Source: a virus
Length of the DNA: 64,000 bases
Direction: 5' to 3' (one strand)
IMG/VR virus record: IMGVR_UViG_3300028822_000042
Span: 22,501-86,500 of that record
Below are positions 7,711 to 25,500 of this stretch, piece by piece; the first letter of the stretch is position 1; each line of letters begins with the position of its first letter. A model generated the notes under the pieces. That model was not told the DNA's origin. It saw only the letters and a program-made list of their open reading frames with translations, and searched no databases. Position numbers and translations under genes: made by a program.

Positions 7711-7725
7711 CCCTTAGGAGTCATA

Positions 7726-8658
7726 ATGTCTAATGGCGGCACACAAAAAACATTAGCCTCTTATCGAACAACAAGTGTTGATAAGAAAATTAGCTATCCT
7801 AACAATATAGAGAATGTAGGCAGAGCTTTACATCCTGCAGAAAGTACTAATTCTGTAGTTTCTGATTATATGGGATATGGTAGTTTCTCTGGGGCTGATG
7901 TTAAGGTTGTTGTCCATTATCCAAGAAATCACTTCTTAGAGAAGAGACTGGCTGAAGAGAAGAGAGACGCCATAAGAGAGATAAATGAAATAACTGATGA
8001 CATTAACTCATTTAGCGTTATAGATACTTCAAGACTAGAAGGCAGAAGACAATCTGCATATAAAAAGCTAGAAGAAATTGATGAAGAGATTGATAAATTT
8101 CACAATATACCTACATCTAAAGTTTTAGCTGAGCTTCAGACTATCAGCTATTCTATATTTAGAGAAAAAACTCCTGTACGTACATTAGGTTCTGTATACC
8201 CTAGAGCATATGTTCGTGGTCCGCGTACTATTGGTGGCTCTATGATCTTTACTGTGTTTCACAAACATGTTCTTCATGAGGTACTAAGCATGAACATGGG
8301 AGTATACAGTACAGGAACTAGTGATCATGATAGATACAGATATTCTACAAATTTACCTGATCAAATACCTCCTCTAGATATGAGTATCATATTTGCTAAT
8401 GAATATGGTGCTATATCTCATATGGGGCTGTGGGGGGTTGAATTTGTGCAGGAAGGATCTACTTTTTCAATTGAAGACATCTTTACTGAGAACACAGTGC
8501 AATATGTTGCTAGAGACTTAGACCCTATGAGGGTAGTAAATGCAAGAGAAATTGACGGGAAAGGTGTAAGTAAAGAATGGACCAAAACAGCTTCTATATT
8601 GTTATATGAGAAGCAACAGTTAAATAGTCATCTGACTAGAAGGAATCCTTTCTTATAA
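7726..8658 (+). CDS. Tail tube paralog 2 (tube initiator-like)
   Basis: Shares 'SFSGADVK', 'LQTISYS..REKTPV', 'RGPRTIGGSMIF' and 'DQIPPLD...ANEYG' with 6981..7655, plus a helical insertion. Confidence 0.75.
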   Translation: MSNGGTQKTLASYRTTSVDKKISYPNNIENVGRALHPAESTNSVVSDYMGYGSFSGADVKVVVHYPRNHFLEKRLAEEKRDAIREINEITDDINSFSVIDTSRLEGRRQSAYKKLEEIDEEIDKFHNIPTSKVLAELQTISYSIFREKTPVRTLGSVYPRAYVRGPRTIGGSMIFTVFHKHVLHEVLSMNMGVYSTGTSDHDRYRYSTNLPDQIPPLDMSIIFANEYGAISHMGLWGVEFVQEGSTFSIEDIFTENTVQYVARDLDPMRVVNAREIDGKGVSKEWTKTASILLYEKQQLNSHLTRRNPFL

Positions 8659-9551
8659 TGGCTATTAGAGACGAATATAACAATCTTGTTGGTAGCAAAT
8701 TCTCTGGAGAGAGAGTTTACGAATATGATTGGTTTTCTGGGTCTCAGATTAACATTATGTTAGGTGATGTTGTTATTGATAGTGCTGTAGGTATTTCCTT
8801 TAATATCCAACAGACAAAAACACCTGTTTATGGATATGCTAGTCAGTATTACAAGTTTGTGACTAACGGACATGTTCTTGTGCAGGGCAACTTGACCATT
8901 GCTTTTAAAGAAACAGGATACCTTATGTATCCTATTCAGAGGCTCTTAAACAATCAGGTCAATACAAAGAATCTTGACTATTCTGACTTGGCTAAACAAG
9001 AATTCTCTAGTTCTCCTAAATACTCAATGGAGAATGGTGAATTTCAGAGAGGTTATAAGAGTTCCACTAATAGTCTTACAGAAGCAGCTGATGCAGCTAG
9101 AAGAAAACGCACTATGAAGGCTAATGTGGAACAGATGTTTGAGTGGGAAGCTCGTGGCGGAGATCCTAAATTACAGAGAAGATACAACAAATTCTGGAGA
9201 GGGCTTTCAAGTCTTCCCGATGATAAGTTTGAAGACTGGGCAGAAACTTTTGAAGATGCAGTTTGGTTCGGATCAGATAGTAGCAATCCTGTAGTTAGAG
9301 ATAAATTTTTTAGCAACAATATTGATGACACAACTAGTCTTGCAGATGAAGATGTTTTGATGCATCGGCGTTTAGATCAATATCCAGAAATTGATATTAT
9401 TATCTCTTATGGAGATCAATCCATACATTCAGCAAATCACACCGTCAAGAAGATACTTGATGTCAATTTTACTGGTCAGTCTCAAACAATAGAAATTTCT
9501 GGCCAGCCTGTGTATGAACAGTACAGCTTCATTGCTAGAAATCTAGTTTAA
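8658..9551 (+). CDS. Tail tube paralog 3 (tube initiator-like)
   Basis: 'FSGSQI', 'GISFNIQQTKTPVYGY', 'VQGNLTIAF', 'DQYPEIDI' and 'EQYSFIARN' align with the two preceding tube-fold proteins. Confidence 0.7.
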   Translation: MAIRDEYNNLVGSKFSGERVYEYDWFSGSQINIMLGDVVIDSAVGISFNIQQTKTPVYGYASQYYKFVTNGHVLVQGNLTIAFKETGYLMYPIQRLLNNQVNTKNLDYSDLAKQEFSSSPKYSMENGEFQRGYKSSTNSLTEAADAARRKRTMKANVEQMFEWEARGGDPKLQRRYNKFWRGLSSLPDDKFEDWAETFEDAVWFGSDSSNPVVRDKFFSNNIDDTTSLADEDVLMHRRLDQYPEIDIIISYGDQSIHSANHTVKKILDVNFTGQSQTIEISGQPVYEQYSFIARNLV

Positions 9552-10980: not shown

Positions 10981-13900
10981 TTGGTCAAAAAAATTCTTGC
11001 AGAAGGGGAACAACCAGGTTTACCTGGTGAAGGGTTCCAAGATAATTCTGGTTCTTTAACAGCTCTTGCATTTGGCGCTGGAGGTCTTGCCGCTACTGGA
11101 TTTATTCCTGTTGGCAAAGGTCGGATGTGGGATAAGTATCTCTCTGGAATTAGAAGTGTAGAAACTGCTTTTCCCGGCGCAATACTAAGAACATTTAGGA
11201 CATCTGAGTTCCTCTCTCCTCTTGAGAGCTGGTCCAAGCTTGGTCTTGCTGAAGCTGAGCTTAAGGGTGCTGGAGTATATTCAGATTACCTTAAGACTAC
11301 TTTTGGCCAGGGCATAAAGGCACTAGATGTTACTAGAACTGGATCTGTATTTGGTGAAGTCAGAGACGAGGCTGGAAGACTTGTTGGTATGGCAGCCCAG
11401 ATGGAGGCTGGTACTCTCAAGGGTTCTGCTATCTCTGACTACTATGCTCGTGTTCAAGGATTAAATCTTACTCAGTATGATTCTTTAAATGAATCTTTGC
11501 TCAGAGCCAAGTGGAAAGCTGCTAAGAGTACTCTTCCTTATAATGAATGGGTAAAGACTCTTGAGCCTCATCTGCGTAGAGAACGTATAATACTTGGGGC
11601 TAAGATTAGAAACAAAGCCAATCTCATGGGGCTTAATCTTGAACTCTCTGAGAGGATGGCTCGCAATGTAGCTAAAGCAGAAATAGCAGGAAATATCCTT
11701 AGAGCTAAGGCAGCATCTACTGCCGGTAGACTAAACAATCTACTTACAAAACCATTAGAAGTTCCTGTTCTTGGTGATGTTCTAGAGAAAATACCTGGCC
11801 TGCGTAGTATGGCCGTTCGTCCTGGCACCAACTTACAGATACTTGGAAGGCTTACTGCCAAAGGTGCTGTAGCTGGTGCTGCTTGGAAGGGTTTAGATTA
11901 TGTAGACTATCTTCGTTCTGAAGGGTCTATATGGGCTGCTCCACTGTCTGTAGCTGGTGGGGCTGCAGCTGGTGCTTTTATAGCTAGAAGACCTGGTATG
12001 AAATTCTCTAAAGGAGGATTGATTGCCGGTGCAGCTCTTGGTCTGTTTACTTCCATATCTCCTAGATTTAGTGAAGGCATATTCTATGGTGCAGCATCTA
12101 CTACTGCAGATATAAATCTTGCTAGATCAGAATTGTCTAGTACCGTTGGGATCACAGAGTCTCTTCAAGAACAAGAGGAAGTAACTTCTGGTCTTGTAAC
12201 TCCTCAAGCTGCATTAGCATTTGGTGGTATTGGTGCTTTAGGTGTTGGATTCGCTGACTATTTTTCCTTTCTTGGTCGCGCAAGTAAAGAGAAGTTGGCT
12301 ACTAAAGAACCGTTCTTTAAAGTTCTTGAACGATTCAGAGAGAGAGAGGGCAACTTAGTATCTAATTTGTGGGAGTCTTCTCTTGGTAAGAAAATAGCTA
12401 AAACTCCTATTCTAAAACATCTTACTAAGATTAAGAGTGCAGCAGGACTTGGCTTTGTTGCTGGCCTTGCTGCATGGCAAGGAATTACATCTGGTCTTTC
12501 TCTCCTTGCTGGCAATCCATTGGCAGCTATACCTGGTGTTCCTTTTATAGGAACCACAGAAACTCCTGAAGAGCTTAGTGCTGTTTATTCAGGTGAGAAA
12601 GATGTAGCTGTACGTAAAGGCAGATGGTGGGAGTTTGGTAGATCAACTGGTTACGAAGGTGGACGTATAGAATACTATCGTCCGCACTTTCTACATAGAT
12701 TAAGAACTAGAGCGTATCAGAAAGGACTGTATGGTTCAGAAGAGGAGAAATGGGAATACGACCCCATGATAAATCCTCTTAAAGCTCTTTTCGGCTCGGA
12801 TGAGTGGAAATACCACTATGAGAAAAAACATCAGTATGATAGACCTGCTCCTCTTACAGGCACATATGGAGAAGATATTCCGTTCATAGGGCCTCTAGTT
12901 GCAGCTACATTTGGTAAGCTCTTCAAGCCTCGTAAGAAAGTACGTCCAGAAGAATGGAATCTTGGTGGTGGTGAATATGTAGATATTACTGACCCTAGAG
13001 GAGAGACAGAACCTGCATATGGTCTTGGTGGTTTAGGTCCCGGTGCACCTGTTGCTCCAGAAGAAGGCAGCCAACTATTAAACCAACTTAACTATAGGAG
13101 ACGTGAAGCTGTAGGTCTTGTAGGTTTCCTTGAGGGAGCCCTTACTAAGAGAGCTATTGGTAGAGAAGAATTTTTTCAGAACAAAAGAACCCTAGAAGGA
13201 ATGGGAGAAGAGACAGGTTCTGAATACTGGTTATGGAAACATCTTAATCTTGGCGGTGGGTTAGGCACTACAGAAGCAGTTAGACGTTTTATTCCTAGAA
13301 CTCCTAGCTATCTAGAGACATATAATCCTCTAAAGAATGCTCTTCCTTCTTGGATGCCAGATGACTACTTTCTAGATCTAAAGCATGGTAACCCCTTCAA
13401 GAAGATACCTGAAGCAGAGATAAGACTTCCTGGTGAAGGCTATGCCACCCTACATCCAGAAGTTGAAGGTCTATCTCCTGAAGAATATCCATTAGCACAT
13501 AGAGTTAAGATCCTTGGCGATGTAGCTATGTGGTCTAATGAATATAAAAGCACAATTAGATATGCCAAGTCTAGATTAGATCAATTCTCTCCTGAAGAAG
13601 CTCAGATGATTCAGGAGACAGAGGAACAAGTAAGAGCCAAGAAGGAGAGAAGAGAGTTTTCTCCCTATATATTTGGTGGCGACCAACTAGAAGAGATGGA
13701 TGTAACTGTCTCTGAAGTCTTAAGTCCTAGACATATTAAGACTAAAGAGATGGGAGATATGATTCTTGAGATTCAAGGTATTGGTGCAGTTAAGAATACA
13801 AAGGAAGCCTTAAACTTTGTTCAGCAGTCTCTTGAAGGCAGCAAGGTATCTGTCCATACACCTAAACTAGAACCTAGAAGATACAGCTCTATAACTAGAG

Positions 13901-15162
13901 GTCCTAGAATGAAGGTAGTTCCTATGGTTGAGGGACAGCCTATTAGTTCTTTAATGGCAGAGGAAGGTATTTCTGAAGCGAGGCCACTAGAAGATGAGTT
14001 CAAACAATTACAATTTTCAACGGCAGAACGTCTTGCAGGTAGATTAGGTGAATATGTCACTCATGGAATAGAGACTCCGCTTGAATATCTAACTCCTGTA
14101 TCTCCAGCATCAAAACTTATTCGTAAGAGATCTCCAGTTGAAGAATATGTTGCTACAGAAGCTATAGGAACTGGAGCCTCATTCTGGGATAGGCCTGTAG
14201 AGAATTTTCTAAAGCCTGCTTATAACATGGCTAAATACAAAGCAGGTATAGTTGATGTCCCTGAAAACGTAGAAGAAAGACGAGATATTCAAGAATACTT
14301 CGATATGCTGAAGTGGGTTAAAATGTCTCGTCTTGAGAAGAAAGCTCGACAAATAGGTGATGATACAGCTGCTGCTGAATATAGCAAAGCTAAATCCTCT
14401 ACTGTATTTGGTGTAGATGTCTTTAAGAGTCCTGTAAATATTATGAGGGCTCTTCCTCGTCGAGAGAGAGATTTCTTTGGCGAATTTGTTGACGCAAGAA
14501 CAGAAGAAGAGAGAGCACAAATCCTTCAACTCATACCTGAGAACGAGAGAAGAATTTATCTTTCTCAATGGATGAGACAAGAAGAAAGAGCAGCCTATTC
14601 AAAGAGGAATGCAAAGATAGAGACAGAAGAGGACGATAAGATAATAAACATGACTGCTAGAATGAGAGCCTCTGAAGGTTTTTCTTATCCTGAAGGTGCA
14701 GAAGAACAATGGCTTAAAGAGACTGGCGGTCGAATAGAATTTGATGAGTGGATTAGAGAACGTAAAGCAGAAGAATACTTTGAGACTCACTCTCTCCCTG
14801 GAGCAGACTGGCTAGGTTGGCATCCATCAGTGGACCTTGAAGATGTTAAAATGCTCATGGTTGAGCAAGCAGGCCTTGACCACCATGACTTTGATCTCTG
14901 GGGACAGAGAAGAAGAGCCCTTGCACGTAAGCCATATATAGAACCATCTCTCCTTCAAGGTATGACTGAAAGAGCTGAATATGAAGATTCTTGGAAGGTT
15001 GCTGAGAATTCTAGAACTCTTACAAGAATGTTTAATGACCATCAAGCAGAAATATATGTTTCTCAGTTAGATACCCATGGAGATGACAATAAATATGATA
15101 TCCAGGTTAAGGATAGCCGCAGAGACCTTATTGAGAAAGCCTACAGACATCTAGGAGCTTAA
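10981..15162 (+). CDS. Tape-measure-like / ejection protein with multiple hydrophobic helices and a degenerate SNase-like domain
   Basis: 1393 aa, TTG start 9 nt after AGGAGG, directly after the chaperones. At least five Gly/Ala-rich hydrophobic stretches in the N-terminal ~520 aa. Confidence 0.65.
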   Translation: MVKKILAEGEQPGLPGEGFQDNSGSLTALAFGAGGLAATGFIPVGKGRMWDKYLSGIRSVETAFPGAILRTFRTSEFLSPLESWSKLGLAEAELKGAGVYSDYLKTTFGQGIKALDVTRTGSVFGEVRDEAGRLVGMAAQMEAGTLKGSAISDYYARVQGLNLTQYDSLNESLLRAKWKAAKSTLPYNEWVKTLEPHLRRERIILGAKIRNKANLMGLNLELSERMARNVAKAEIAGNILRAKAASTAGRLNNLLTKPLEVPVLGDVLEKIPGLRSMAVRPGTNLQILGRLTAKGAVAGAAWKGLDYVDYLRSEGSIWAAPLSVAGGAAAGAFIARRPGMKFSKGGLIAGAALGLFTSISPRFSEGIFYGAASTTADINLARSELSSTVGITESLQEQEEVTSGLVTPQAALAFGGIGALGVGFADYFSFLGRASKEKLATKEPFFKVLERFREREGNLVSNLWESSLGKKIAKTPILKHLTKIKSAAGLGFVAGLAAWQGITSGLSLLAGNPLAAIPGVPFIGTTETPEELSAVYSGEKDVAVRKGRWWEFGRSTGYEGGRIEYYRPHFLHRLRTRAYQKGLYGSEEEKWEYDPMINPLKALFGSDEWKYHYEKKHQYDRPAPLTGTYGEDIPFIGPLVAATFGKLFKPRKKVRPEEWNLGGGEYVDITDPRGETEPAYGLGGLGPGAPVAPEEGSQLLNQLNYRRREAVGLVGFLEGALTKRAIGREEFFQNKRTLEGMGEETGSEYWLWKHLNLGGGLGTTEAVRRFIPRTPSYLETYNPLKNALPSWMPDDYFLDLKHGNPFKKIPEAEIRLPGEGYATLHPEVEGLSPEEYPLAHRVKILGDVAMWSNEYKSTIRYAKSRLDQFSPEEAQMIQETEEQVRAKKERREFSPYIFGGDQLEEMDVTVSEVLSPRHIKTKEMGDMILEIQGIGAVKNTKEALNFVQQSLEGSKVSVHTPKLEPRRYSSITRGPRMKVVPMVEGQPISSLMAEEGISEARPLEDEFKQLQFSTAERLAGRLGEYVTHGIETPLEYLTPVSPASKLIRKRSPVEEYVATEAIGTGASFWDRPVENFLKPAYNMAKYKAGIVDVPENVEERRDIQEYFDMLKWVKMSRLEKKARQIGDDTAAAEYSKAKSSTVFGVDVFKSPVNIMRALPRRERDFFGEFVDARTEEERAQILQLIPENERRIYLSQWMRQEERAAYSKRNAKIETEEDDKIINMTARMRASEGFSYPEGAEEQWLKETGGRIEFDEWIRERKAEEYFETHSLPGADWLGWHPSVDLEDVKMLMVEQAGLDHHDFDLWGQRRRALARKPYIEPSLLQGMTERAEYEDSWKVAENSRTLTRMFNDHQAEIYVSQLDTHGDDNKYDIQVKDSRRDLIEKAYRHLGA

Positions 15163-15163
15163 T

Positions 15164-18100
15164 ATGTTTGGACAAGATGAACGATCACCTCTATGGGGTT
15201 TAGCTGCTGGCGGAAGTCTTATTGGCGGTGCCGCATATGCTTTTAGTAAAAACAAATCAGCATTTGCTGATGTTCTTAAATCTAATCTAGATGTGGCCTC
15301 TTCAGTGGGGTCTAGAATTGCTGATGCTCCTGGCTTTGTTACAGTTAGAAATATGCCTTCAGCAGTAGGTTCTGTTAGTAGTGAATTGTCTTCACTAGTT
15401 CAGGATCTACCTAAGAGCACAATACGAGACATAGAACAACTTACATACAGATCTATCATGGCAGGCAAAACAGCAACCCATGAAGAAGCATTGTCAGCTT
15501 TGTCTGTAGTTAGAAAACAGGGATCTCCTCTAGAAGCATATGAAGCAGCAGTTGAGAAAGCTGGAGCATTAGGCGGAGACATAGGAGAGATAGAAAGAGG
15601 AATGAAAGGAATTGGAAGTGTTCCTTCAGAATCTATAGTTAGACGTGCAGGAGTTTCTGAGGGAGGATTTGGTTTTGGCTTTCAATATGAGAAATTTGCT
15701 GATCTTAGTGAAGATGCCCAATCCAGATATACAAGACTTAAAAGCAACCTTGAGTCAGCAGCTGGCAGAAAAATAGATATTAGAGTTAAGAACATAAGTG
15801 ATATTATTGACAATGAGGTTGTAACTACTCCTATGGCTACAGCAGAAATTGCAGGAGAGTCATTTAATATTCCACTTGCTGATACAAAATATACTTATGG
15901 AGGCAAAGGATATACTGCTAGATACGCAACTAGAGGGGCCTATACTGCTACTGGCCATAAGATGACTTATTCTCAACTTGCTGAACAGACACTTATAGAT
16001 GCTTTGTCTGGCGCACAATCTCATAGAGAAGTTAAGCAAAATTTACTTCAAGCACATCAAACACTGATAGATCAAATGAACTCTAGAGATTCAGATGCTA
16101 GAGCAGCAGCAGTATGGACTCTTCCTGAGCCTGTTGCTCCTTCTGGATCTAAAGCTAGAACACGTATACTTGCACAAGAGGCAATTGCATCAGGCAAGAT
16201 TACAGAGGAAGAAGTAATTAATCTTTTAGGACATGGCTTCTATGGATACACAAGTCCCTCTGCTGCAGCAAAGGGAACATTAGCTACTCAAAATCTAGCA
16301 ACTGGTCTCTATGGTCCTCTTGGGGCTTTTATGAGTGCAGAGCAGAAACCTACTCAATTCATTAGAGGAGAATGGGGTGTTACAGGAGAAGCTAAAAGAA
16401 GAGCTAAAGCTTTTAAAGGTGCATTCGGACAAGCATACTCTCGTTTAGATAGAAAGATGAAGGGAGAACTATATGACCCTCTAATATATGGTAAAGGAGT
16501 TAATCCCCTATCTGCAGAAGCTTACTCCTCTCCTCAATTACTTACATTTTATGCAAAGCCTGCTGCAAAGAAAGAATATGGTATTGGCTATAAGTCAGGA
16601 GCTCTTAATGAACTTCTTTCAGCAGAAGAAGGAGTTATATCTAAATCTGTTACCGGACAGATGGAACATGAAAGAGTAATTCAGAAGAAGATTGCTCTTG
16701 ATGAAGGTTTTAGAGTTAACAAACAAATCTCAGAACAACTTAAAGATGTACCTCCAGGTTCTGGAGTTTCTCCTGTATTCTTAGGCGAAAATCAGTTTGT
16801 TGGAATAGAGAAAGGCACAGGTAAAGAAATAATAACTAGTAGAGGAGATGCTATTGAAAATGTTGTTGGTGCTGAGATTACTGGGCCTAATGAGGCTAAT
16901 GTTTTTATAAGAGAACGTAGAAGATTGTCAGAAGATGAATATTGGAAGTTCTTCTCAGAAGAGAACAAATTTATGGCTTCTGCTGCTTCTGAAGAGAAGA
17001 TGAGAAAGACTATTAAAGCAGCTGGGGTAGGAGACCTCAGAAAAATAGCTGGTCAGGAAATAGAAGCTGTGTTCTCCGGTAAGCTTGTTGGCAGAAACAA
17101 AATGGCACTTCTAAACCAGCAGATAGAAGCAGCAAGTATGTTTCTTGGTAGAAAGATAGATAGAGGAACAATTGCTTCTCCTGCGGCGCAAGAATTCTTA
17201 GCTGACCCTATAAAAGCTCTCAATGTAAAAAGTCTTATGGCTTCAAGTGCAGCAGATGCTGATTTTCAAATACAGAAGAACTTGGTTGGCTTAACAAGAA
17301 AGTGGGGCTTCTCTGGATTTGAAACACAGTTAACATTTGGTCTTACTGATCTTGATGTAGCAGCTAAGCTTGAGAAACAGACAAACTTTAGAGGCTTTTC
17401 TAGATTAGTTGAGAGAGCACCTGGTGTAGTCGGTCTTGGCAAAATGAAGCTTGGCGATAGAGCAGCTGAAGGTGGAGCTGGAAGAATAGGATCATTTGAA
17501 ACTACAGGTTTTAGAGCCTTGGCGATGAAAGGCGAAACAGGAGAAAGCTTTGCTGCTGAACTAAGAAATAGACTTCTTGGTAAAGGTGATATTACAGAAT
17601 CAGACAGAATGTTTGCCTCTGTTATTGGAGAACAAGGCTTCTTTGATAAGTTTAAACGTAGAGGTTTAGAAAATTTAACAGATATAGATCCTGAAGAACT
17701 GTTTGTTCCTGAAGGTAGAGAAGTTAGTCTTGGTCGGAGGATGAAAGAACTAGGAGGATCCTCTTCTTTATATGTCCCAGGTCTTGAGACATCTCCTGAT
17801 ATAATGGCTCCGTCTATCGTTAAAGGTGAAAGAGTACAGTCTCCAGCCGCTAAAAGCATAATGTCTTTCCAAGGCTCTCTTAGTAAACATGTCGCCGGTA
17901 AAATAGGAGATGAAGAACTTGAGGCTGCAGCTGCCACTCTCAGAACTAATCTAGCTAGAGTCTCAGAGCAGCAAGCATTTGCTAAGAGTAAAGTACTTGG
18001 CTCTAGAGTTCTTACAGGCATCAGAGGAAACTTTGCCAAGGATAGAGATACTTTTAGAATATCTAAATCTGCAGCAGAAGGAATGTTTGATGAGCTTATT

Positions 18101-19549
18101 GACAGAGCTGAATCAGGCGAACAAGTAGATTTCCTTAAGCAACAGAGAAAAGCAGCCATGGAAGAACAGGTTCTTACTGGAGGAATGTGGAGACACCCCA
18201 CTACAGGACCTGAGTCATTTCAGTTCGTAAAATACAAAGTAGATAAAGATCTAGCTGATGGGATGCTAGCTGCTCCTAAAGAATATGGGAAGCTTCATAT
18301 AGAAGGCAAGACTAGACCTGTAGATGTTTCTGCTATGGTTGGGTTTAAAGGTGACTTTGACAGAGATCAATTCGTTATATCTGCAATAGCCGATAGAGAT
18401 AACTCTAATAGAATAGCTAAACAGATAGATCATGGCATGAAAGAACAGTATAACAGATATGTGTTTAATCATTATGCTATGAAAGATTCCATCGAAGGCA
18501 GACTAGGCAAAAGTTCTGTCCTTGATATGACTTCAAAAGAAGCCCTTGAGATGGGATACAAACAACACACAACAGCAAAGACCTCAACTGGTAAAGTTAA
18601 TCTAGCTTTACAAAAACTAAAGATTGGTGTTTCAGCTGCAGCTCCTGAAAAGTATAGACCTTTAGCTGAAATGTTCTGGCATTTAGAAGAAGCGGCTATC
18701 AGTGGCAAGCATGGTGTACTAGAATCAGAACTTTATCAGGCAATTGCTAGTTCGGTTAATAAAGGTGGAGAACGGGGAATTAGAGATATGGAGGCTGTAA
18801 TAAAAAGTCTCATGGGAGAAGCAAGAACAATAAGAGGTGAAATAACTGATTCTTTTGGTAATAGGATTACTCAACAGATTGATTATAATCCAAGACAATG
18901 GGCTGAGACAGCTGTCGGTTCGTTAGATGCTGTTAGAGACGATGTTAATGCTGTTATGCGTTCGGCTTCATTTGCTAAAGGAAATGTAGACGCAAATATA
19001 AAACAGCTTACTGAACAATTCCATGCTAGAAGATCTGGTTCTGTTGATATAGCTCAAAGCCTTATGCAAGGAACAAGTGATGAGTTTACAACTAAAACAT
19101 CAAGAGCAATGAGACGAGGAGCTGTAAGAGCTAAAGGATTTATGTCTGCAGTTAAGAAAGGTTCTAAACCTCTTATGGTTGGAGCTGCAGCTGCTGCAGG
19201 TATTATGCTTATGTCACCTAGCACATCAGGTGTACTTAGAAAACCTGAAGGCTCTGCTGGCGGACGTAATATGCCACCAGAAGACTATGGTCCACCTAAT
19301 GGCGGTCCAATACAACCACCACCACCAGGACCAAATAGATCTCCTAGAACCTATGACATAGGTAGCGGAAACAGAACATCTCATGCTAATATTAGAATGC
19401 GTATTAACGATTTAGATTCTTCATCTAGAGACTTTATGGCTAGTGCTCGTGCCCTATCAGATGGTTCTGGAGTTAGAATTAATGCTAAAGATGACAGAAG
19501 TATCTTAGATCCTAGATTACTCGCTAGTAAGATCCATGAGAGGCTATAG
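15164..19549 (+). CDS. Putative single-chain two-barrel (beta+beta'-like) virion RNA polymerase at the tape-measure locus
   Basis: Ordered motifs: AEEGVISKS, KFFSEENK, IEAVFSGKLVGR...QQIE, GGAGRIGSFE...AL, WRHPT, GFKGDFDRDQ, TAKTSTG, AAISGKHG. Confidence 0.75.
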   Translation: MFGQDERSPLWGLAAGGSLIGGAAYAFSKNKSAFADVLKSNLDVASSVGSRIADAPGFVTVRNMPSAVGSVSSELSSLVQDLPKSTIRDIEQLTYRSIMAGKTATHEEALSALSVVRKQGSPLEAYEAAVEKAGALGGDIGEIERGMKGIGSVPSESIVRRAGVSEGGFGFGFQYEKFADLSEDAQSRYTRLKSNLESAAGRKIDIRVKNISDIIDNEVVTTPMATAEIAGESFNIPLADTKYTYGGKGYTARYATRGAYTATGHKMTYSQLAEQTLIDALSGAQSHREVKQNLLQAHQTLIDQMNSRDSDARAAAVWTLPEPVAPSGSKARTRILAQEAIASGKITEEEVINLLGHGFYGYTSPSAAAKGTLATQNLATGLYGPLGAFMSAEQKPTQFIRGEWGVTGEAKRRAKAFKGAFGQAYSRLDRKMKGELYDPLIYGKGVNPLSAEAYSSPQLLTFYAKPAAKKEYGIGYKSGALNELLSAEEGVISKSVTGQMEHERVIQKKIALDEGFRVNKQISEQLKDVPPGSGVSPVFLGENQFVGIEKGTGKEIITSRGDAIENVVGAEITGPNEANVFIRERRRLSEDEYWKFFSEENKFMASAASEEKMRKTIKAAGVGDLRKIAGQEIEAVFSGKLVGRNKMALLNQQIEAASMFLGRKIDRGTIASPAAQEFLADPIKALNVKSLMASSAADADFQIQKNLVGLTRKWGFSGFETQLTFGLTDLDVAAKLEKQTNFRGFSRLVERAPGVVGLGKMKLGDRAAEGGAGRIGSFETTGFRALAMKGETGESFAAELRNRLLGKGDITESDRMFASVIGEQGFFDKFKRRGLENLTDIDPEELFVPEGREVSLGRRMKELGGSSSLYVPGLETSPDIMAPSIVKGERVQSPAAKSIMSFQGSLSKHVAGKIGDEELEAAAATLRTNLARVSEQQAFAKSKVLGSRVLTGIRGNFAKDRDTFRISKSAAEGMFDELIDRAESGEQVDFLKQQRKAAMEEQVLTGGMWRHPTTGPESFQFVKYKVDKDLADGMLAAPKEYGKLHIEGKTRPVDVSAMVGFKGDFDRDQFVISAIADRDNSNRIAKQIDHGMKEQYNRYVFNHYAMKDSIEGRLGKSSVLDMTSKEALEMGYKQHTTAKTSTGKVNLALQKLKIGVSAAAPEKYRPLAEMFWHLEEAAISGKHGVLESELYQAIASSVNKGGERGIRDMEAVIKSLMGEARTIRGEITDSFGNRITQQIDYNPRQWAETAVGSLDAVRDDVNAVMRSASFAKGNVDANIKQLTEQFHARRSGSVDIAQSLMQGTSDEFTTKTSRAMRRGAVRAKGFMSAVKKGSKPLMVGAAAAAGIMLMSPSTSGVLRKPEGSAGGRNMPPEDYGPPNGGPIQPPPPGPNRSPRTYDIGSGNRTSHANIRMRINDLDSSSRDFMASARALSDGSGVRINAKDDRSILDPRLLASKIHERL

Positions 19550-19552
19550 TAA

Positions 19553-22500
19553 ATGACAAAGAAGAAAAAACCAACTCGTGAAGAGCACCTAAAGTATATG
19601 AAGACAGACACTTCATCTATACTTGGTAAGTTAGGTTCTTTTCCTGTACGTAGGTTACATCAAGAAAGAGACTATTCTACCTCTCCTCGCACATCACTTA
19701 GATATATATCATCTACGATTGAGAGAAGTCGTCCTTCATTTGATAAAGCAAGAACAACTGGATTTGATTATAATCCAGGTTATGTAATTCCTTCAGACAT
19801 TGAGTTAAATACAGGTTTTAGTGACGAAAGAGAACTTCAGTTAGAGAACGACTTTGCTGAACCTATTAGCAGTGAATCTATTGAAGGCGGAACAAATAGA
19901 CCTGATCTACTAGAGCAAGAAATAGAAGAAGCTATTTCTAAAGATACTAAGCTAGCTACAAAATTTTCTTTTAATACTTTTTCAGATGATTTTCTCATCA
20001 TAAATGATGTCTTTCTCTATAACGTTCCTACAGCAAGTATCTCAATTCGGTCACAAACTGATGTTTTTGTTGGTGAGACACTTAGAACTAGAGCACCTGT
20101 AATCTCTACAGAAGGTCGACAAGATTTCATTTTGAATTTAAGTTTAGTCTTTAATCCTGGTAGAGAACAAACAGAAGATTTACGTAGACTTATATCTGAA
20201 CTATCAAGACATCCTCTTGTCTTTATCTTCAATAACAAAGTTAGAAAGTCAATTGGTGTTGGTGAATTCGACACCACAATGTTTATTCTTGAAGCGGGTA
20301 CACTTAGAAGCTCATCTGAATCTGTAGGTGCTGTAGTACTAGATTTACAGATGCACTATTTCAATCATAAACCTTTCAGCAATAACTTCTTCTTCAACGC
20401 GAAGATGCCCGGTATTTCATATTCTTCTGAGATTGAAGACTCAAAGGCAAGAGAGCCACTTAGTTTAGATAGTCTTGAAGGATATGAGTCGTCTGATTAT
20501 ATTCTTGACCAAAAAGCACAAGATATAAGAGAAAGAATAAGAAAGAGTGTTACTCAAGTTGCAGATTCTAAGACAAGAAATATTCCTGTAAACTTTCCTT
20601 CAGAGTCTGATTCTTGGAAGTATTATGCAGATCATCTTACTGATTTGACTCCTATCATCTCTGAGAAGCCATCAGACTATATGAGCTTTTCTGTTAAGGT
20701 CTTCGAAGTAAAAGACCCTCCTAAAGAAGCAAAACAAGGACTTGGTACGATTCAGGGCGCCTTAACAAGCACAGTTACTCGTCCTTCTGTCAAGTCTATG
20801 TATGATGCTACTAAGCCTCTTCCTGAATCCAAAACATACCAACAGAAAGAGGTAGAGGCTACGTATGATTCTAATGTACAGCCATCTGCTCTTGAAGGCA
20901 CACCTATTGATTTTTATAGTTATGACTCTGGCAGGTCTGACAGTATTATACTTACTGCTTCTCCTGGTGTTGTTCATAGTGATGCCTCAAGTAGACTTTC
21001 TGATTTAATTAATGTTGGGAAGGATGAAGGCGCCCCTGCAATTCAACCTGGATTAATTCTACATATGCAAAAAGTAGCTAATAGATTTCCAGGTAGAAAA
21101 ATTTTAGTTAATTCAGGTTCCAGGTTTCCTAAAAACCCAGAGAAATTCTATTCTAAACCAGTAGAGAGAAGAAGTAGACATGCTACTGGAAACGCCATGG
21201 ACTTTAAGGTTCAAGGCGTATCAAATAGAGAACTTTTTAAGTTCTTAAGAACTCTTCCTAATTGTGGATCAGGATACTATCCTAATTCTACATTCTGCCA
21301 TGCTGATTATAGATCTAGAAAGGATTATTGGGTTGATATTTCTGGCCCGGGAGAAAAATCACATTATCTTAGAGGCCAAGACAGAGCAGATTACCTTAGA
21401 CAACATGTCTATGATGGGTCTGCACAATCAGACAATGTAGAGGCAGAAGCCGACAAGAGAAGTCGTCAGGCTAAATCAAAACCTCATGAGCAACGTAAAG
21501 ATGCTGCCGCTCCTAAATCAAGTGAATACGCTAAACAAGAAGAAGAATTATACAAGAAACAAACAAAACAAGATCCTTCTATTGGACATAAAGTAAACGA
21601 CCCAGTAAAGAGGTCGTGGCAGGCTAGAGCTGATTGGATAGAAAAACTCTATAGAGAAGGAGGTTGGATCTATTATTCAGGAGAAGATAATAAGATAAGA
21701 AATGTATTCTATAAGGAGTACTCTGTAGAAATCTCTTCTGGTATAGATTCAAATAGAGATCCTGACATTCTTAGAAATATTGTTTGTTCTGCAATCTCAA
21801 TTCAGTTTGGTCATAGAATTGCTCCTATGAGATTGCTTAGTCAACATACATACACTTATCAATTTCTTGGCGCTGGTAATAAATCTGGACAAATGGTTTT
21901 TACTTTCTCTGGCAAGAAAGGTCGTGAGTCTGCAGATGCTCTGAAGAGACTAATTATTTTTGCTAGAGATAATGCAAGAAATTTTGGAGGTGTAATCAAA
22001 GAAGCAGGAACTATATATATAAATGGCCTCAACTACAATAATGGAGACACTAATACAATTCTGTCTCTGCTTAATATAGAGAATATCATTATTACAGATA
22101 TTAAGGAGTCTTCTCTTCCGGACTCTGTAGATAAACACCAACTTGTACTTGAGTTTATTATTCAGGATTTTCAAGAAGAGACTTTTGAAAAACTATTTGT
22201 TGAATCTGTTGAGAATAGAAGAAGAATAATAAAACAAATATTTAAGTATCTTACTAGAAACAAATATGGTGTGGTTCCTGTCCCTTCAGTGGCCACCTAT
22301 GATCCATCTCAATATAGACCGTATGTTTTAAACAAGGAGACTCCTTCTTGGGTTTCAAGTATTATTAGCAGAGCGGCTACTATAACTAGAAATATAGAGA
22401 AGCAGATGCCTCCTCTTGACTGGAAGTTAGAGCCTAGATCTTCAAGAACATGGAGAGACATATATGCAGAGTGGGGAGCTGATAAAGTAATAAAGGGAGA

Positions 22501-25500
22501 CTATTCAAATGTCTCTTCTTCAGACTTCAATGCTTCTTCTTTAACTGTAGGTAGAAGTGTGTCTTTGTCTGCAGTTCAAGACCTAACAGAAAGACGCAAG
22601 TTCGAGAGTAATGGAGGATCAGAAACCAACAATACTCATAATGATCTATATAGAGAATGGCTATCACAGATGACCAACCTCACTAAAGAGGTCAAGAAGT
22701 ATATAGAAGACGAGAAGAACTTTGAAAAGTACTTTGGTTCTCTTGGTGATGATTTATTAGATGCTGTTACTCAGACTATGGGTGAGTGCTATGGAGATAT
22801 GCTTCTTCCTAATCTTCCACATGCTAACATTCCCGTACCTCCAGAATTCTATGTCTATGACGACTCAGATGAAAGCCCTATCTTATCCAATATTACAGAC
22901 CCTGCTAATATGGAGAAGTTTTTAAAAGAACATATTAGGAATGAAGTTCAATCTATATCTTTGTACATGAGAGAACGTTGGCTTGGTGGATCATACTTAG
23001 CAAAGAATCTTCCTCGTATATTAGAAAATAGGAAATATTACGATAGACAGATGCAAGGAGAGTTTGATTTTATAGATAATTTTTGGAAGATATATCAAGA
23101 AGGAGCAACAGCTTGGGAACCAATAACATATAAAGAGGACCCTTCTATTGATAACAATTCTCAAGTTAAGAAGTGGAAAGAATTTACTTATGCTGGTATA
23201 GGAGCCACTAATCCTGAAGACGCTAGATTTAAATACATGGAAAGTCTTGTTGGCTTAAGTCAATATCTTAATAAAGGTAGACATTGGCAAACAAGTTATA
23301 CTGAACAAGATAACCGTAACCTAGTGACAAATATATATGGCGACCTGTATGATAAGACATCTTTTGGTCCCAATCCACAATATAACAAAGCAGATGCTGC
23401 ATCTAATGGCAAAGCTCTTCCAGAACGAACACTAACTCAGATACAAGCGATAACAAACCAAGCGTATTCTAAAGTAGCTAAAGACAATAATGTAGCTATT
23501 CCTATTGGTTCTGATAGAACCGCGTTACCAAACGGTGATATTGTTATAGGAGACACGAAAGAAGAAAGATTAGCTGAAGAATACTCAACAAGTGTTGCTA
23601 TGATTAATGCAGCTAAAGAGAGTGTCGATAGGATGAAGAGACGCTCTCAGAATAGCTTATTGGGGTATATCGGTAGTGTTGGTGGTCTTGCTCTTGTCTC
23701 TATGCTTGATTTTACTGACACCTATGATGTTGATGCTTCTGATTTAATATATAGAGGAAATGCTGATGCTGTAAATAGAGCTAGCGCAGCACAGCATATA
23801 TCTAATGTAATTAAAACTTTAGATCATAATATTAAAGAAAACGTAGATGAAACCAACCAAGAAGACAAGATGGCATCTATGTTTGCTGGGATGGCTATTG
23901 GCTCTAAGGCAGATGATCTTAGCATTCGAAGAGCATATCCAACATTTAAAATATATTTTATTGAAGAAGACGCTCAAGATAGCGAAATGATAGATGGGAA
24001 GGTCGTCAGAGCATTTGATGACTTTTACAGTTATTCAGCTATTCAAGAAATAAAGATAACTAGGTCTCGCAAAATAGCTTCTGATCTTGCTGTTATAAGA
24101 ATGACTAATGTTGGTGGTCTTCTTCTAAGACGTAGATTTGGAGATAGAGATCCTAGACAAAATAGTACTGGTGAAATGCAAGGTGTTTTTGCAGATACCG
24201 CTAAAGAGCATCCATTTGAGAAGATGGTTCTTCAAGATGGAGTAAAGGTTCAAATCAGACTTGGTTATGCCTCAGACCCAAGTAATCTAGAGTCAGTATT
24301 TCTTGGTCAGATAGTTGAGATAGCGCCTTCAGAACATGGCAAAATCTTAGAAATAATGTGTCAGGGATATGGAGCTGAACTTGAATCTATTGAACTTGGC
24401 GAGCTAGAGGATGGACCTATATATACTAGCACTCAACAAGCTCTGTCTTCTGCTATCATTCAAGATAGCGTGTCTACATTTGGTAGACAAAGTAATTTTA
24501 ATAGATTCAATCCTGCAGAAATAAGACATGCTTGGACAGGAGGTACTGGAGATAGTATTCTTGGAAAAATAAATCCTGCTACTGCTGTCAGAGATTGGGC
24601 AGACCATAATATGGATAAACACTTCCAGAAGTACACCTTCTTGAATTTTCCTCAAGATGATAATATTTTTGCTCCTCCTCCTTCTGCTTATGCCTCAGCA
24701 TGGATGAGGTTTTATAACAATGCCTGTATCTACAGACCTTTAAAACAAACTCCATGGCAAATATTCAAAGAACATGAACTTAGACATCCTGGATATATTT
24801 CTATGGCTGTACCATATGGACATTCACCTAGAATGACAATGTTCTTTGGTTCAAAGATGCAGCACTATTGGTCTAAACCTCCTTCATCTTTAGAACTATT
24901 TGCGTCTGAGAATGCATATAATGCTCTTGTTAGAATGAGAGGCAAAGTTGCTTCAGGCGATTTTAAGTCTTTACAAGGTTTAATTAGTCGACTGACTAAA
25001 GAGTCAGGAGAAAAGCCTAAGCTTATATCTGCGATGCTTAGAGATATTGCTTTGTCTGGTGCTCCTACAAGAACATCTCAAGCAATTGCTAAAGAGACAG
25101 GAAGATATAAACCATTTAGAAACTATCATTACTTTGATAGCTATCACCATATTTTAAAAAATGAAATTCGTACTTCTACAGATGGAACATTTAATGAAGT
25201 AGAAATACTATTCTTTACTGATGAAGATGATATTCAAGAACAATATGCAGAAGATCTAATAAAAAGCATTCAAAGTCTTGGATCAAAACAGGAAGGTGTA
25301 TTTTCTGTTAAGCTAGATGAAAATATACTTGAAAGTTCACTAAGGTCTTACAGAGAAGAATTTCCGTCATGTGTCACTGTAGATATGGCAAGAAGGTATG
25401 CTCAGGGTATTTTTGCAAGACACCTTAGAGACGCCTATAAAGGAGAGCTTATTGTTCTTGGCAAAGAAACACTAAAGCCATATGATATTTGTTATCTCAA

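What the first reader, a model, noticed from the sequence alone, without database searches (positions are those of the whole stretch)
18344..18370. Non-canonical catalytic loop DFDRD instead of DFDGD
The three metal-binding Asp residues are intact, but the near-invariant Gly is replaced by Arg (AGA), and the beta-like ED motif reads EE. The crAss-like phi14:2 virion RNAP also deviates at this position (DFDID) and was described in an autoinhibited conformation. Inference: this is either a lineage signature of a regulated enzyme activated on ejection, or a decaying polymerase now serving a structural role.
Basis: partly seen in the sequence, partly recalled or inferred. Interest (0 to 1): 0.7.

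Follow-up and report, generated by a model that had tools for sequence, protein, structure and literature searches.

The report
Arg-variant catalytic loop, phage RNA polymerase
A large gene among the tail genes of an uncultured marine contractile-tailed phage encodes a hidden one-chain RNA polymerase whose metal-binding loop reads DFDRD instead of the textbook DFDGD, and this is a conserved signature of its lineage in an enzyme that looks intact, not an error or a sign of decay.

Summary
Window 18353-18367 encodes D-F-D-R-D (Arg = AGA, 18362-18364), residues 1064-1068 of the 1461-aa ORF 15164-19549.

The motif alone could arise by chance (0.18 expected per protein). Its weight comes from conservation and fold. 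The three Asp are invariant in 78 of 78 aligned relatives, down to about 17% identity. An AlphaFold model (pLDDT 86.6) matches RNA polymerase largest and second-largest subunits, QDE-1 and P23-45 gp96.

- **Lineage signature:** position 4 is R28 K18 G9 A8 N5 D4 L3 Q/W/F. R/K occurs only inside one 59-member clade.
- **Not a base error:** Arg is coded by both AGA and CGT in independent assemblies.
- **Not decayed:** seven of the eight residues said to be universal in two-barrel polymerases are kept. The eighth is probably a conservative Glu (the "EE").
- **Activation on ejection:** untested.
- **Precedent:** crAss-like phages have DFDxD, so this is a new variant of a known kind.
- **Context:** a myovirus tape-measure slot. 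Cultured phages ME3 (DHDQD) and WH1 (DHDGD) carry look-alikes there.

This scan has already reported the same polymerase family in at least 23 other genomes, including DFDKD, DFDDD and DHDKD loops.

The parts
15164..19549 (+). ORF of 1461 aa (P0001): single-chain two-barrel RNA-polymerase-like protein in the tape-measure slot of the tail operon
   Evidence: No Pfam, PHROG or PDB sequence match. AF2 model of residues 401-1461 has pLDDT 86.6, pTM 0.81. Fold matches to RNAP subunits.
16364..17482 (+). beta-like (DPBB-B) module, residues 401-773
   Evidence: Model residues 1-373 align with second-largest RNAP subunits: ASFV 8q3b_B Z 10.0, phiKZ 7ogp_C 9.8, AR9 7s00_C 9.8, Pol I 4c2m_B 9.3. Residues 440-640 folded alone (pLDDT 93) give the same subunits on top, but at Z of only 4.8.
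16625..16630 (+).
   Evidence: E488 58/58 and 66/78; E489 52/58 and 61/78. It lies at the start of a strand in both models. Residue-level equivalence is not shown: hhalign to rpoB failed.
16946..16969 (+). K595 ... K602, the two lysines of the beta-like barrel
   Evidence: K595 78/78, K602 73/78. They flank a turn between two strands. Counterparts named in PMC2919709 are Rpb2 K979/K987.
17630..19078 (+). beta'-like (DPBB-A) module with the following long helices, residues 823-1305
   Evidence: Model residues 423-905 align with Pol I A190 (7ob9_A Z 11.5, 367 aligned), Pol II Rpb1, vaccinia Rpo147 and Pol IV. Rpb1-like chains reach Z 11.8. Foldseek: the listed top rows are bacterial beta' chains plus one beta chain (4gzy_C), E about 1e-4.
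18191..18199 (+). R1010-H-P1012 (RxP motif upstream of the Asp triad)
   Evidence: R 78/78, P 78/78. hhalign pairs W-R-H-P-T with N-R-A-P-T of E. coli beta' (weak, E 0.016).
18353..18367 (+). catalytic loop D1064-F-D1066-R1067-D1068 (Arg codon AGA at 18362-18364)
   Evidence: hhalign pairs G-D-F-D-R-D-Q with A-D-F-D-G-D-Q of E. coli beta'.
18680..18715 (+). H-L-E-E-A-A-I-S-G-K-H-G (1173-1184): conserved helix end and loop, inferred trigger-loop-like element
   Evidence: E1175 78/78, I1179 76/78, K1182 77/78, H1183 70/78. Helix-loop-helix in the model. The assignment is an inference.
19169..19546 (+). C-terminal tail: hydrophobic Ala/Gly segment, Pro-rich low-confidence stretch, conserved D-D-R-S...K-I-H-E-R-L end
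   Evidence: pLDDT under 50 for model residues 942-1004. Weak profile matches to the C-termini of the slot proteins of phages WH1 (E 3e-9) and 0305phi8-36 (E about 3e-5 to 7e-5), each in a tiny database.
10981..15162 (+). upstream giant (P0002, 1393 aa), Gly-rich hydrophobic segments; homolog of 0305phi8-36 ORF145 virion protein
19553..26008 (+). downstream giant (P0003, 2151 aa): M15 peptidase (476-586) plus baseplate-hub-like C-terminal part

Best explanation
ORF 15164-19549 encodes an intact, probably active, single-chain two-barrel (double-psi beta-barrel) RNA polymerase. D1064, D1066 and D1068 form the Mg2+-binding triad of the beta'-like barrel. They face a beta-like barrel that supplies K595 and K602 and probably E488/E489. 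In this phage family the fourth loop position does not need to be Gly. It has taken ten different residues, while everything around it that catalysis needs has stayed fixed. Arg or Lys at that position is the signature of one large clade, to which the window belongs. It is probably kept for its positive charge next to the third Asp. Shown here: the sequence, its conservation, its clade distribution, the codon evidence and the fold. Inferred: activity; what the charge does (phosphate contact or charge balance); and delivery of the enzyme from the virion through or with the contractile tail to start early transcription. The delivery idea rests on the gene's place in the tape-measure slot and on its tape-measure-like hydrophobic ends and C-terminal tail.
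For: Sequence and frame. Conservation: Asp triad 58/58 and 78/78. R1010, P1012, K595 and E1175 are 78/78, K1182 is 77/78, K602 is 73/78. These include seven of the eight residues that PMC2919709 calls invariant in all two-barrel polymerases (passages). Only 12 of 1061 columns are invariant across the 78 sequences. Fold: AF2 pLDDT 86.6, pTM 0.81. The listed Foldseek top rows are bacterial beta' chains plus one beta chain. VIA-align gives Pol I A190 Z 11.5, QDE-1 Z 11.0 (396 aligned, rmsd 8.1), RDR2 10.7, beta-like subunits Z 9.3-10.0, P74-26 gp62 9.2 and P23-45 gp96 7.5. Position 4: R27 K23 N5 A1 L1 Q1 in 58 sequences; R28 K18 G9 A8 N5 D4 L3 Q1 W1 F1 in 78. On a tree built without the motif columns, all 46 R/K rows lie in one 59-row clade (support 100), and the 19 deeper rows have A7 G6 D4 W1 F1. 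Arg uses both AGA and CGT, Lys uses AAA and AAG. A second assembly agrees. Context: sheath, three tube paralogs, two small genes, then the three giants, then baseplate genes. This order is kept in all 11 IMG/VR loci as far as each locus reaches; L009, L010 and L013 end before some or all downstream genes, and L012 starts after the sheath. There is one copy in each of four related records, including a complete 197.7-kb genome. The same slot in 0305phi8-36 holds a protein annotated as tape measure and found in virions by mass spectrometry. Cultured look-alikes: ME3 gp036 (profile E 5.5e-10 over the beta-like barrel, R-E-P ... D-H-D-Q-D; BFVD E 3.9e-10) and WH1 gp095 (R-Y-P ... D-H-D-G-D).
Against: There is no biochemical or proteomic evidence for this family. 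No sequence method links it to known polymerases: Pfam, PHROGs, phmmer and a family profile against PDB all gave nothing. hhalign to E. coli beta' is weak (E 0.016, probability 2.8%) and failed for beta. The beta-like barrel folded alone matches at Z of only 4.8. The fold evidence is a prediction, and I could not inspect coordinates, so the direction of the Arg side chain and the loop geometry are unknown. Selection for charge is not proven. Position 4 is labile in the wider family. The pattern that R/K at position 4 and R/K at position 6 exclude each other (0 of 46 against 10 of 32, Fisher 5e-5) rests on only 5 independent contrasts (sign test median p 0.25). The codon was checked only in contigs of one run that may be the source sample.
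Confidence: 0.72

Rival explanations
1. Position 4 is simply unconstrained in this polymerase family. Arg/Lys in the window's clade reflects ancestry and mutational neighbourhood (GGA-AGA-AAA are single steps), not function. The enzyme is active either way.
For: Ten different residues occur at this position in 78 relatives, with at least 17 changes of state on the tree. Inside the R/K clade N, G, L, Q and A also occur (13 of 59). The phylogenetically corrected test for a compensating basic residue is not significant.
Against: Within the 47-row crown of the clade, 41 rows are R or K, none is Gly or acidic, and the rest are N or A. R and K interchange repeatedly. Arg is kept across the AGA and CGT codon families. 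No sequence with R/K at position 4 has R/K at position 6, while 10 of 32 others do.
Confidence: 0.25
2. The basic residue is a built-in switch. In the Mg2+-free, packaged or threaded state it pairs with the Asp triad and keeps the loop inactive, as the non-Gly loop of phi14:2 gp66 is inactive in its self-inhibited form. It is displaced once the enzyme refolds in the cytoplasm.
For: Precedent: the gp66 DFDID loop is in a conformation incompatible with Mg2+ binding in a self-inhibited crystal form (passages and section 8). A virion polymerase must be kept off the phage genome late in infection (same paper). The charge is conserved. The protein sits in a tail-lumen type slot and has hydrophobic ends.
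Against: Nothing here tests it: no coordinates, no Mg2+ modelling, no activity. In gp66 the inhibition is ascribed to a cleft-blocking domain, not to residue 4. Relatives with Gly, Ala or Asp at position 4 sit in the same slot.
Confidence: 0.15
3. The protein is a tape measure or other structural tail protein that retains a dead polymerase fold.
For: It occupies the slot where 0305phi8-36 has its assigned tape measure, which has no DxDxD. It shares a weakly similar C-terminal tail with it. It evolves faster than its neighbours: best-segment identity to the window is 28-52%, against 49-64% for the upstream giant and 67-77% for the first tube paralog.
Against: A relic should lose catalytic residues. 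Here the triad, R-x-P, both lysines and E1175/K1182 are the most conserved columns of a 28%-identical alignment, and no relative lacks an Asp.
Confidence: 0.04
4. The Arg codon is a sequencing or assembly error for GGA (Gly).
For: AGA and GGA differ by one base. Only contigs, not raw reads, could be laid.
Against: A second assembler gives the same sequence at word depth 36.5. Of 58 close relatives, 27 have R and 23 have K, none has G. Independent loci use CGT, AGA, AAA and AAG.
Confidence: 0.01
5. It is a two-barrel enzyme of another activity: an RNA-dependent RNA polymerase like QDE-1/RDR2, a primase-like enzyme, or a motor that pulls the genome in by transcription rather than an expression enzyme.
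For: QDE-1 (Z 11.0) and RDR2 (Z 10.7) score as high as cellular largest subunits. QDE-1 has both DNA- and RNA-templated activity (abstract of PMC9508822 in the listing). Hardies et al. raised an injection role for a phage polymerase (passages).
Against: A dsDNA phage has no evident RNA template to copy. The phage relatives with solved structures (gp66, gp96) are DNA-dependent RNA polymerases.
Confidence: 0.08

Closest known systems
Cellulophaga crAss-like phage phi14:2 gp66 virion RNA polymerase (DFDID; family motif DFDxD)
   Same: Single chain with a beta-like barrel followed by a beta'-like barrel. It has a non-Gly fourth loop residue with all three Asp essential. It is a virion enzyme flanked by two other giant virion proteins, one with a peptidase domain. 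crAss-like polyprotein segments appear among the BFVD matches (cr50_1, E 3.1e-4).
   Different: No detectable sequence similarity. Podovirus, against a contractile-tailed phage here. Ile at position 4, against Arg/Lys here. 2180 aa against 1461 aa. gp66's own solved chain was not among the rows listed, so the structural distance is unknown.
Thermus phage P23-45 gp96, tape-measure-fused virion RNA polymerase (PDB 8H2M/8H2N), and gp64 / P74-26 gp62
   Same: Two-barrel polymerase tied to the tape-measure locus together with membrane and metallopeptidase elements. Structural matches: 8f5m_A Z 9.2 (364 aligned), 8h2n_A Z 7.5 (315 aligned).
   Different: gp96 is the N-terminal part of one 5002-aa protein of a siphovirus and has canonical DFDGD. 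Here the polymerase is a separate 1461-aa ORF between two other giants in a myovirus, with DFDRD.
Neurospora QDE-1 / plant RDR2 (eukaryotic RNA-silencing two-barrel polymerases)
   Same: Best whole-core structural matches among single-chain enzymes: 7y7p_A Z 11.0, 396 aligned over model 32-904; 7w84_A Z 10.7.
   Different: rmsd of 8.1-8.7 A, about 10% identity, no Pfam PF05183 match. Cellular enzymes of another biological role.
Middle giant genes of 0305phi8-36-like jumbo myoviruses (Acinetobacter phage ME3 gp036, Bacillus phage WH1 gp095, 0305phi8-36 ORF146)
   Same: Same gene slot and the same flanking homologs. ME3 gp036 matches the family profile over the beta-like barrel (E 5.5e-10), has R-E-P ... 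D-H-D-Q-D, and is a top BFVD fold match. WH1 gp095 has R-Y-P ... D-H-D-G-D and the shared C-terminal tail.
   Different: No tblastn match at E 1e-5. They are annotated as hypothetical, virion structural or tape measure. 0305phi8-36 ORF146 and Moorella MTATph1 CDS0027 show no DxDxD. 0305phi8-36 has a separate YonO-like polymerase, orf99.

Membership tests
Two-barrel (double-psi beta-barrel) RNA polymerase superfamily | beta'-like barrel carrying a DxDxD Mg2+-binding triad | tested here: met
   D1064/D1066/D1068 are 78/78. Model 423-905 aligns with Rpb1/beta'-type chains at Z 11.0-11.8. Foldseek matches beta' at E about 1e-4.
Two-barrel (double-psi beta-barrel) RNA polymerase superfamily | R-x-P motif upstream of the triad (Rpb1 R446/P448 in PMC2919709) | tested here: met
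   R1010 and P1012 are 78/78. They pair with R425/P427 of E. coli beta' in a weak hhalign.
Two-barrel (double-psi beta-barrel) RNA polymerase superfamily | second (beta-like) barrel with two lysines (Rpb2 K979/K987) | tested here: met
   K595 78/78, K602 73/78. Model 1-373 aligns with second-largest subunits at Z 9.3-10.0. The isolated domain gives only Z 4.8.
Two-barrel (double-psi beta-barrel) RNA polymerase superfamily | acidic residue of the beta-like barrel (Rpb2 D837, the D of the E-D pair) | tested here: inconclusive
   E488 (66/78) and E489 (61/78) are the candidates. No residue-level alignment was obtained: hhalign to rpoB failed and the fold tools give ranges only.
Two-barrel (double-psi beta-barrel) RNA polymerase superfamily | bridge helix and trigger loop after the beta'-like barrel | tested here: inconclusive
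   Long helices at model 678-817 and conserved T1142/Q1150/K1153 and E1175/K1182/H1183. Alignments to Rpb1-type chains run to model 903. The assignment of elements is inferred.
Two-barrel (double-psi beta-barrel) RNA polymerase superfamily | Mg2+- and template-dependent RNA synthesis | not testable with these tools
   Needs purified protein.
Cellular-type catalytic loop N-A-D-F-D-G-D | Gly at the fourth loop position | tested here: not met
   Arg here. Gly occurs in 0 of 58 close relatives and 9 of 78 overall.
crAss-like virion RNA polymerase (gp66 family) | sequence homology to gp66 orthologs; podovirus capsid-module context | tested here: not met
   No PHROG or PDB sequence match. The context is a contractile tail module. 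Only fold-level likeness to crAss-like segments in BFVD.
Tape-measure-fused virion RNA polymerase (P23-45 gp96 type) | polymerase is part of the tape measure polypeptide and present in virions | tested here: inconclusive
   Separate ORF, but in the tape-measure slot with a C-terminal tail weakly like slot proteins of WH1 and 0305phi8-36. Structural match Z 7.1-7.5. Virion presence is not testable here.
YonO / RdRP (Pfam PF05183) | match to the family model | tested here: not met
   No Pfam hit for P0001 at E up to 1. No PF05183 match in G000, G001 or G002 (the control rang only in B. subtilis, below the cut-off).

The most novel reading that the evidence does not exclude
The basic residue beside the third catalytic Asp is an intramolecular stand-in for Mg2+. 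It neutralises the triad while the polymerase is stored or threaded through the tail, and releases it in the cytoplasm. That would be a new, loop-encoded way of keeping an injected two-barrel polymerase silent. The charge would sit at loop position 4 in this clade and could move to position 6 in others.
Probability: 0.12. Interest if true: 0.75.

Novelty: new variant of a known kind. Interest (0 to 1): 0.5.

Why it matters
The DFDGD loop is among the most conserved sequences in biology. Until phi14:2 gp66, every studied two-barrel polymerase had Gly at its fourth position (passage). This family shows, over 78 diverse sequences, that the Gly is dispensable while the three Asp, R-x-P and the two lysines are not. 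It also shows that a whole clade prefers a positive charge there. That gives a natural set of variants (R, K, N, A, D, G, L, F, W, Q) for asking what the fourth residue does in catalysis or regulation. The cultured phages ME3 and WH1 carry look-alikes in which the question can be put at the bench. For annotation it means a DxDxD with any fourth residue, in a giant tail-module gene of a large myovirus, should be read as a candidate polymerase rather than as a plain tape measure.

Tried and rejected
**Sequence-level links to known polymerases.**
- Pfam gave only a sub-threshold HEAT_EZ match (E 0.3) for P0001.
- PHROGs gave none.
- phmmer against PDB: best E 0.33.
- The family profile against PDB gave only a low-complexity match to acetyl-CoA synthetase (E 0.72).
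- tblastn against 50,697 phage records found no match at E 1e-5.

**Residue-level mapping of the 'EE'.**
- hhalign of the beta-like sub-alignment against E. coli rpoB gave no meaningful alignment (E 0.16).
- The isolated domain model matched second-largest subunits only at Z 4.8 or below.

**gp66's own solved structure.** It did not appear among the 50 rows listed. This says nothing about whether the folds differ.

**A second polymerase in a complete relative (G001, 197.7 kb).**
- No match to PF00623, PF00562 or PF05183.
- The PF00940 search is uninformative, because its control rang nowhere.
- A regex scan of ORFs found no other convincing RxP ... DxDxD pair.
- A cryptic second enzyme is not excluded.

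**Bacterial or archaeal genomes.** None of 74 pattern matches in 185,579 species genomes encodes a relative, so there is no host clue.

**Reads.**
- Only one run holds the stretch, and it is kept as contigs.
- Two other runs of the same study hold next to none of its words, which is not evidence of absence.
- Raw-read support for AGA could not be obtained.

**Other steps that led nowhere.**
- Covariation: the position 4/position 6 exclusivity did not survive the independent-pairs test.
- blastp among the middle giants of ME3, WH1 and 0305phi8-36 gave nothing at 1e-3.
- Mg2+ modelling and inspection of the Arg side chain were not possible, because the tools return no coordinates.

**Literature.**
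- A search for DFDRD, DFDKD and DFDxD found only the crAss-like paper in a polymerase sense.
- A search for two-barrel / tape measure / virion RNA polymerase / contractile found only the P23-45 work as relevant.
These include the 23-family alignments of Chaban et al. and the survey of viral genomes with two polymerases, which might already list this family.
Full report
**What is at the coordinates.** Window 18344-18370 reads ttt aaa ggt gac ttt gac aga gat caa. It is in frame with the 1461-codon ORF 15164..19549 and gives F-K-G-D-F-D-R-D-Q. DFDRD is residues 1064-1068, at 18353-18367, and the Arg codon AGA is at 18362-18364. A DxDxD alone is weak evidence. With 5.0% Asp, 0.18 such motifs are expected in a protein of this size. 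A related complete phage genome has ten of them in ORFs of 300 aa or more.

**Is it a polymerase at all?** No sequence method says so.
- Pfam gave only a sub-threshold HEAT repeat, and PHROGs gave nothing.
- phmmer and a 78-sequence family profile against all PDB chains gave nothing.
- tblastn against 50,697 phage records gave nothing at E 1e-5.

The fold does say so. An AlphaFold2 model of residues 401-1461, built on a 78-sequence alignment, has mean pLDDT 86.6 and pTM 0.81.
- Foldseek against PDB: the listed top rows are bacterial beta' chains plus one beta chain, at E about 1e-4.
- VIA-align against 48,161 representative chains puts largest subunits on top. These are Pol I A190 at Z 11.5 with 367 aligned, the archaeal A' subunit, Pol II Rpb1, vaccinia Rpo147 and Pol IV, all over model 422-905.
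- QDE-1 (Z 11.0, 396 aligned, rmsd 8.1) and RDR2 (Z 10.7) match over model 32-906.
- Second-largest subunits match over model 1-373: ASFV Z 10.0, phiKZ and AR9 non-virion polymerases Z 9.8, Pol I A135 Z 9.3.
- The Thermus phage enzymes match too: P74-26 gp62 at Z 9.2 and P23-45 gp96 at Z 7.5.
- A second look at Foldseek's own list gives Rpb1-type chains up to Z 11.8.

So residues 401-773 are a beta-like module and residues 823-1305 a beta'-like module in one chain. This is the order found in QDE-1 and phi14:2 gp66. A weak hhalign of the family sub-alignment against E. coli beta' (E 0.016, probability 2.8%) pairs W-R-H-P-T with N-R-A-P-T and G-D-F-D-R-D-Q with A-D-F-D-G-D-Q. That puts R1067 at the place of beta' G463.

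**Conservation.** A word-indexed search found 57 relatives of 1142-1542 aa at 32-69% identity. An exhaustive HMMER search with residues 601-1461 found 77 representatives down to about 24% identity.
- In the 58-sequence alignment D1064, D1066 and D1068 are invariant. Position 1067 is R27 K23 N5 A1 L1 Q1 and never Gly.
- Of the 62 further representatives, 43 carry a DxDxD at the matching place. None of the matched stretches of the other 19 spans the motif.
- In a 78-sequence alignment that includes relatives of 17-21% identity, only 12 of 1061 columns are invariant. They include the three Asp, R1010, P1012, K595 and E1175. K1182 is 77/78 and K602 is 73/78.

Ruprich-Robert and Thuriaux (PMC2919709; passages read) list eight residues shared by all two-barrel polymerases: three Asp, R and P of Rpb1, two Lys and one Asp of Rpb2. 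Seven have clear counterparts here. The eighth, Rpb2 D837 (the D of the beta E-D pair), is probably E488 or E489 in S-A-E-E-G-V-I-S. E488 is kept in 58/58 and 66/78 sequences, E489 in 52/58 and 61/78.

I could not confirm it residue by residue. hhalign to rpoB failed. The barrel folded alone (residues 440-640, pLDDT 93.0) still ranks second-largest subunits first, but at Z of only 4.8.

**The fourth position.** Across the 78 sequences it is R28 K18 G9 A8 N5 D4 L3 Q1 W1 F1. I built a FastTree tree from the core columns with the motif columns removed and rooted it at the midpoint.
- All 46 R/K rows fall in one clade of 59 (support 100). That clade also holds N5, G3, L3, Q1 and A1.
- The 19 deeper rows have A7 G6 D4 W1 F1 and no R/K.
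- The window's nearest relatives are all R or K.
- At the DNA level the site reads AGA in the window. In 11 independent IMG/VR loci it reads CGT x2, AGA x1, AAA x6, AAG x1 and AAT x1.
- Arg coded by two codon families rules out a one-base error and points to the amino acid, or its charge, being kept.
- A second assembly of the only run that holds this DNA agrees over 17800-18900. It is a 58.8-kb Logan contig at word depth 36.5 and may come from the source sample. Raw reads were not available.

One further pattern is a lead only. No sequence with R/K at position 4 has R/K two residues later (0 of 46), whereas 10 of the 32 others do (Fisher 5e-5). There are only five phylogenetically independent contrasts, and the sign test gives a median p of 0.25.

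**Context.** The window is part of an 86.5-kb virus record estimated 45% complete, with 39% G+C.
- The record runs: a polyvalent nuclease-kinase protein, large terminase, portal, major head protein. Then come the tail sheath (5068-6960), three tail-tube paralogs and two small genes. The three giants of 1393, 1461 and 2151 aa follow, then gp25-like and gp6-like baseplate genes and fibres.
- The third giant has an M15 peptidase domain and a hub-like C-terminal part.
- This order is kept in all 11 IMG/VR loci as far as each locus reaches. L009, L010 and L013 end before some or all of the genes downstream of the polymerase, and L012 starts after the sheath.
- Four related records, one of them a complete 197.7-kb genome with terminal repeats, each have one copy of the gene.
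- That complete genome has no Pfam-detectable beta', beta or RdRP gene. The T7-type search had no working control.

The nearest cultured phages are the 0305phi8-36 group: Bacillus phages 0305phi8-36, WH1, KLEB27-3 and Edson, Acinetobacter phage ME3 and Moorella phage MTATph1. All have three giants in the same slot.
- In 0305phi8-36 the middle one, ORF146, is annotated as the tape measure and as a virion protein by mass spectrometry. Hardies et al. (PMC2147016, passages) assigned it by tail length. It has no DxDxD, and only its C-terminal about 170 residues weakly match the family profile.
- ME3 gp036 (1603 aa, annotated hypothetical) matches the profile over the beta-like barrel (E 5.5e-10, including the K-F-F-S...K stretch). 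It has R-E-P ... G-G-D-H-D-Q-D-Q. Its two halves are among the best BFVD fold matches (E 3.9e-10 and 1.5e-5).
- WH1 gp095 has R-Y-P ... K-A-D-H-D-G-D and the shared C-terminal tail.
- BFVD also returns Microcystis phage proteins, a siphovirus 'minor tail protein', a second ME3 protein, and crAss-like polyprotein segments.
- Iyer et al. (PMC7824862, passages) list two-barrel polymerases in group 1 jumbo phages and in two group 3 phages (0305phi8-36 and Clostridium phage c-st). The passages I read do not list one for ME3.

**How it most likely works.** The evidence fits an intact polymerase.
- The triad binds catalytic Mg2+, and the facing barrel supplies the two lysines and an acidic residue.
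- The conserved helices after the triad plausibly act as bridge helix and trigger loop. These are T1142/Q1150/K1153, then E1175 ... K1182-H1183.
- All of this is inferred from conservation and a predicted fold. Activity is not shown.
- The fourth residue is not needed as Gly in this family.
- In the window's clade a positive charge is preferred. What it does (phosphate contact, charge balance, or a switch) is open.
- Delivery from the virion is also an inference. It rests on the gene's slot, its hydrophobic N- and C-terminal segments, the low-confidence Pro-rich linker and conserved C-terminal tail, and the parallels below.

The 'decaying polymerase' reading is rejected because no relative has lost any catalytic residue.

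**Comparison with what is known.**
- Drobysheva et al. (bioRxiv 10.1101/2020.03.07.982082; passages and section 8 read) showed that phi14:2 gp66 carries DFDID. Each Asp is needed. The crystal form is self-inhibited, with the loop in a conformation that cannot bind Mg2+. They wrote the crAss-like family motif as DFDxD, and they state that all polymerases studied before had Gly there. So a non-Gly loop has a precedent; Arg/Lys does not, in the library searched.
- Chaban et al. (10.1101/2022.12.01.518664 and PMC10770324; abstract, sections 3, 8, 9, 10 and passages read) showed a virion two-barrel polymerase fused to the tape measure of siphovirus P23-45, with canonical DFDGD and with membrane and metallopeptidase parts in the same 5002-aa chain.
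- Here comparable parts are spread over three adjacent genes of a myovirus.
- I found no paper describing this family. The supplements of Chaban et al., which hold their 23 family alignments, were closed.

**Standing within this scan.** The polymerase itself has been reported and followed up before in at least 23 other genomes, with DFDKD, DFDDD and DHDKD loops and with the ME3/WH1/KLEB27-3 look-alikes. Sibling notes on this genome cover the gene, its ends and the three-gene module. My results agree with them and were obtained independently of the follow-up reports, which I read afterwards. This report adds the census of the fourth loop position, its clade distribution, the codon evidence, and the position 4/position 6 pattern.

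**Verdict.** This is a new variant of a known kind, of moderate interest.

Noticed in passing
window 18353-18373 and alignment A2: A basic residue occurs at loop position 4 (1067) or at position 6 (1069), never both: 0 of 46 against 10 of 32. The naive Fisher test gives 5e-5, but there are only 5 independent contrasts (median p 0.25).
   Followed up: partly
window 10981-26008 versus loci L004-L014: The polymerase diverges faster than its neighbours. Best-segment identity to the window is 28-52% for the polymerase, 49-64% for the upstream giant and 67-77% for the first tube paralog.
   Followed up: no
window 19169-19546; L019 (0305phi8-36 ORF146) and L022 (WH1 gp095) C-termini: The hydrophobic segment plus D-D-R-S-type C-terminal tail of the polymerase weakly matches the C-termini of the slot proteins of WH1 (E 3e-9) and 0305phi8-36 (E about 3e-5 to 7e-5), each in a tiny database. 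This suggests a shared tail-assembly or anchoring module.
   Followed up: partly
BFVD match A0A172Q0S6 (Acinetobacter phage ME3, 798 aa): A second ME3 protein also matches the polymerase model (E 4.7e-5, 591 columns). ME3 may therefore carry two two-barrel polymerases.
   Followed up: no
BFVD matches A0A075BUT7_2 (Microcystis phage MaMV-DC), A0A7J4_2 (Ma-LMM01), A0A8S5SD80_1 (Siphoviridae sp. 'minor tail protein'): Fold matches (E 1.6e-6, 1.7e-4, 2.1e-7) hint that tail-module polymerases of this kind reach cyanophages and siphoviruses.
   Followed up: no
window 6981-9551: Three consecutive paralogs match phrog_9206, which is labelled 'major head protein'. In 0305phi8-36 the homologous genes are noted as tail tube and tube paralog, so the PHROG label looks wrong for them.
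   Followed up: partly
L002:10329-13397 (upstream of the window): The large terminase ORF is 1022 aa. Its first about 400 residues match primase-type PHROGs, so it is either a fusion or carries an insert.
   Followed up: no
L002:4310-8650 (upstream of the window): A 1446-aa protein has exonuclease-, endonuclease- and kinase-type PHROG matches. Sibling notes also flag it.
   Followed up: no
L021 (Moorella phage MTATph1) 14539-17869: A transposase gene and small ORFs sit between the middle giant (no DxDxD) and the hub giant. One small ORF weakly matches the family's C-terminal tail, so the middle gene may be disrupted.
   Followed up: no
window 57364-63999, minus strand: A cluster of aminotransferase, sulfotransferase-like, methyltransferase and nucleotide-sugar epimerase genes faces the fibre genes.
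   Followed up: no
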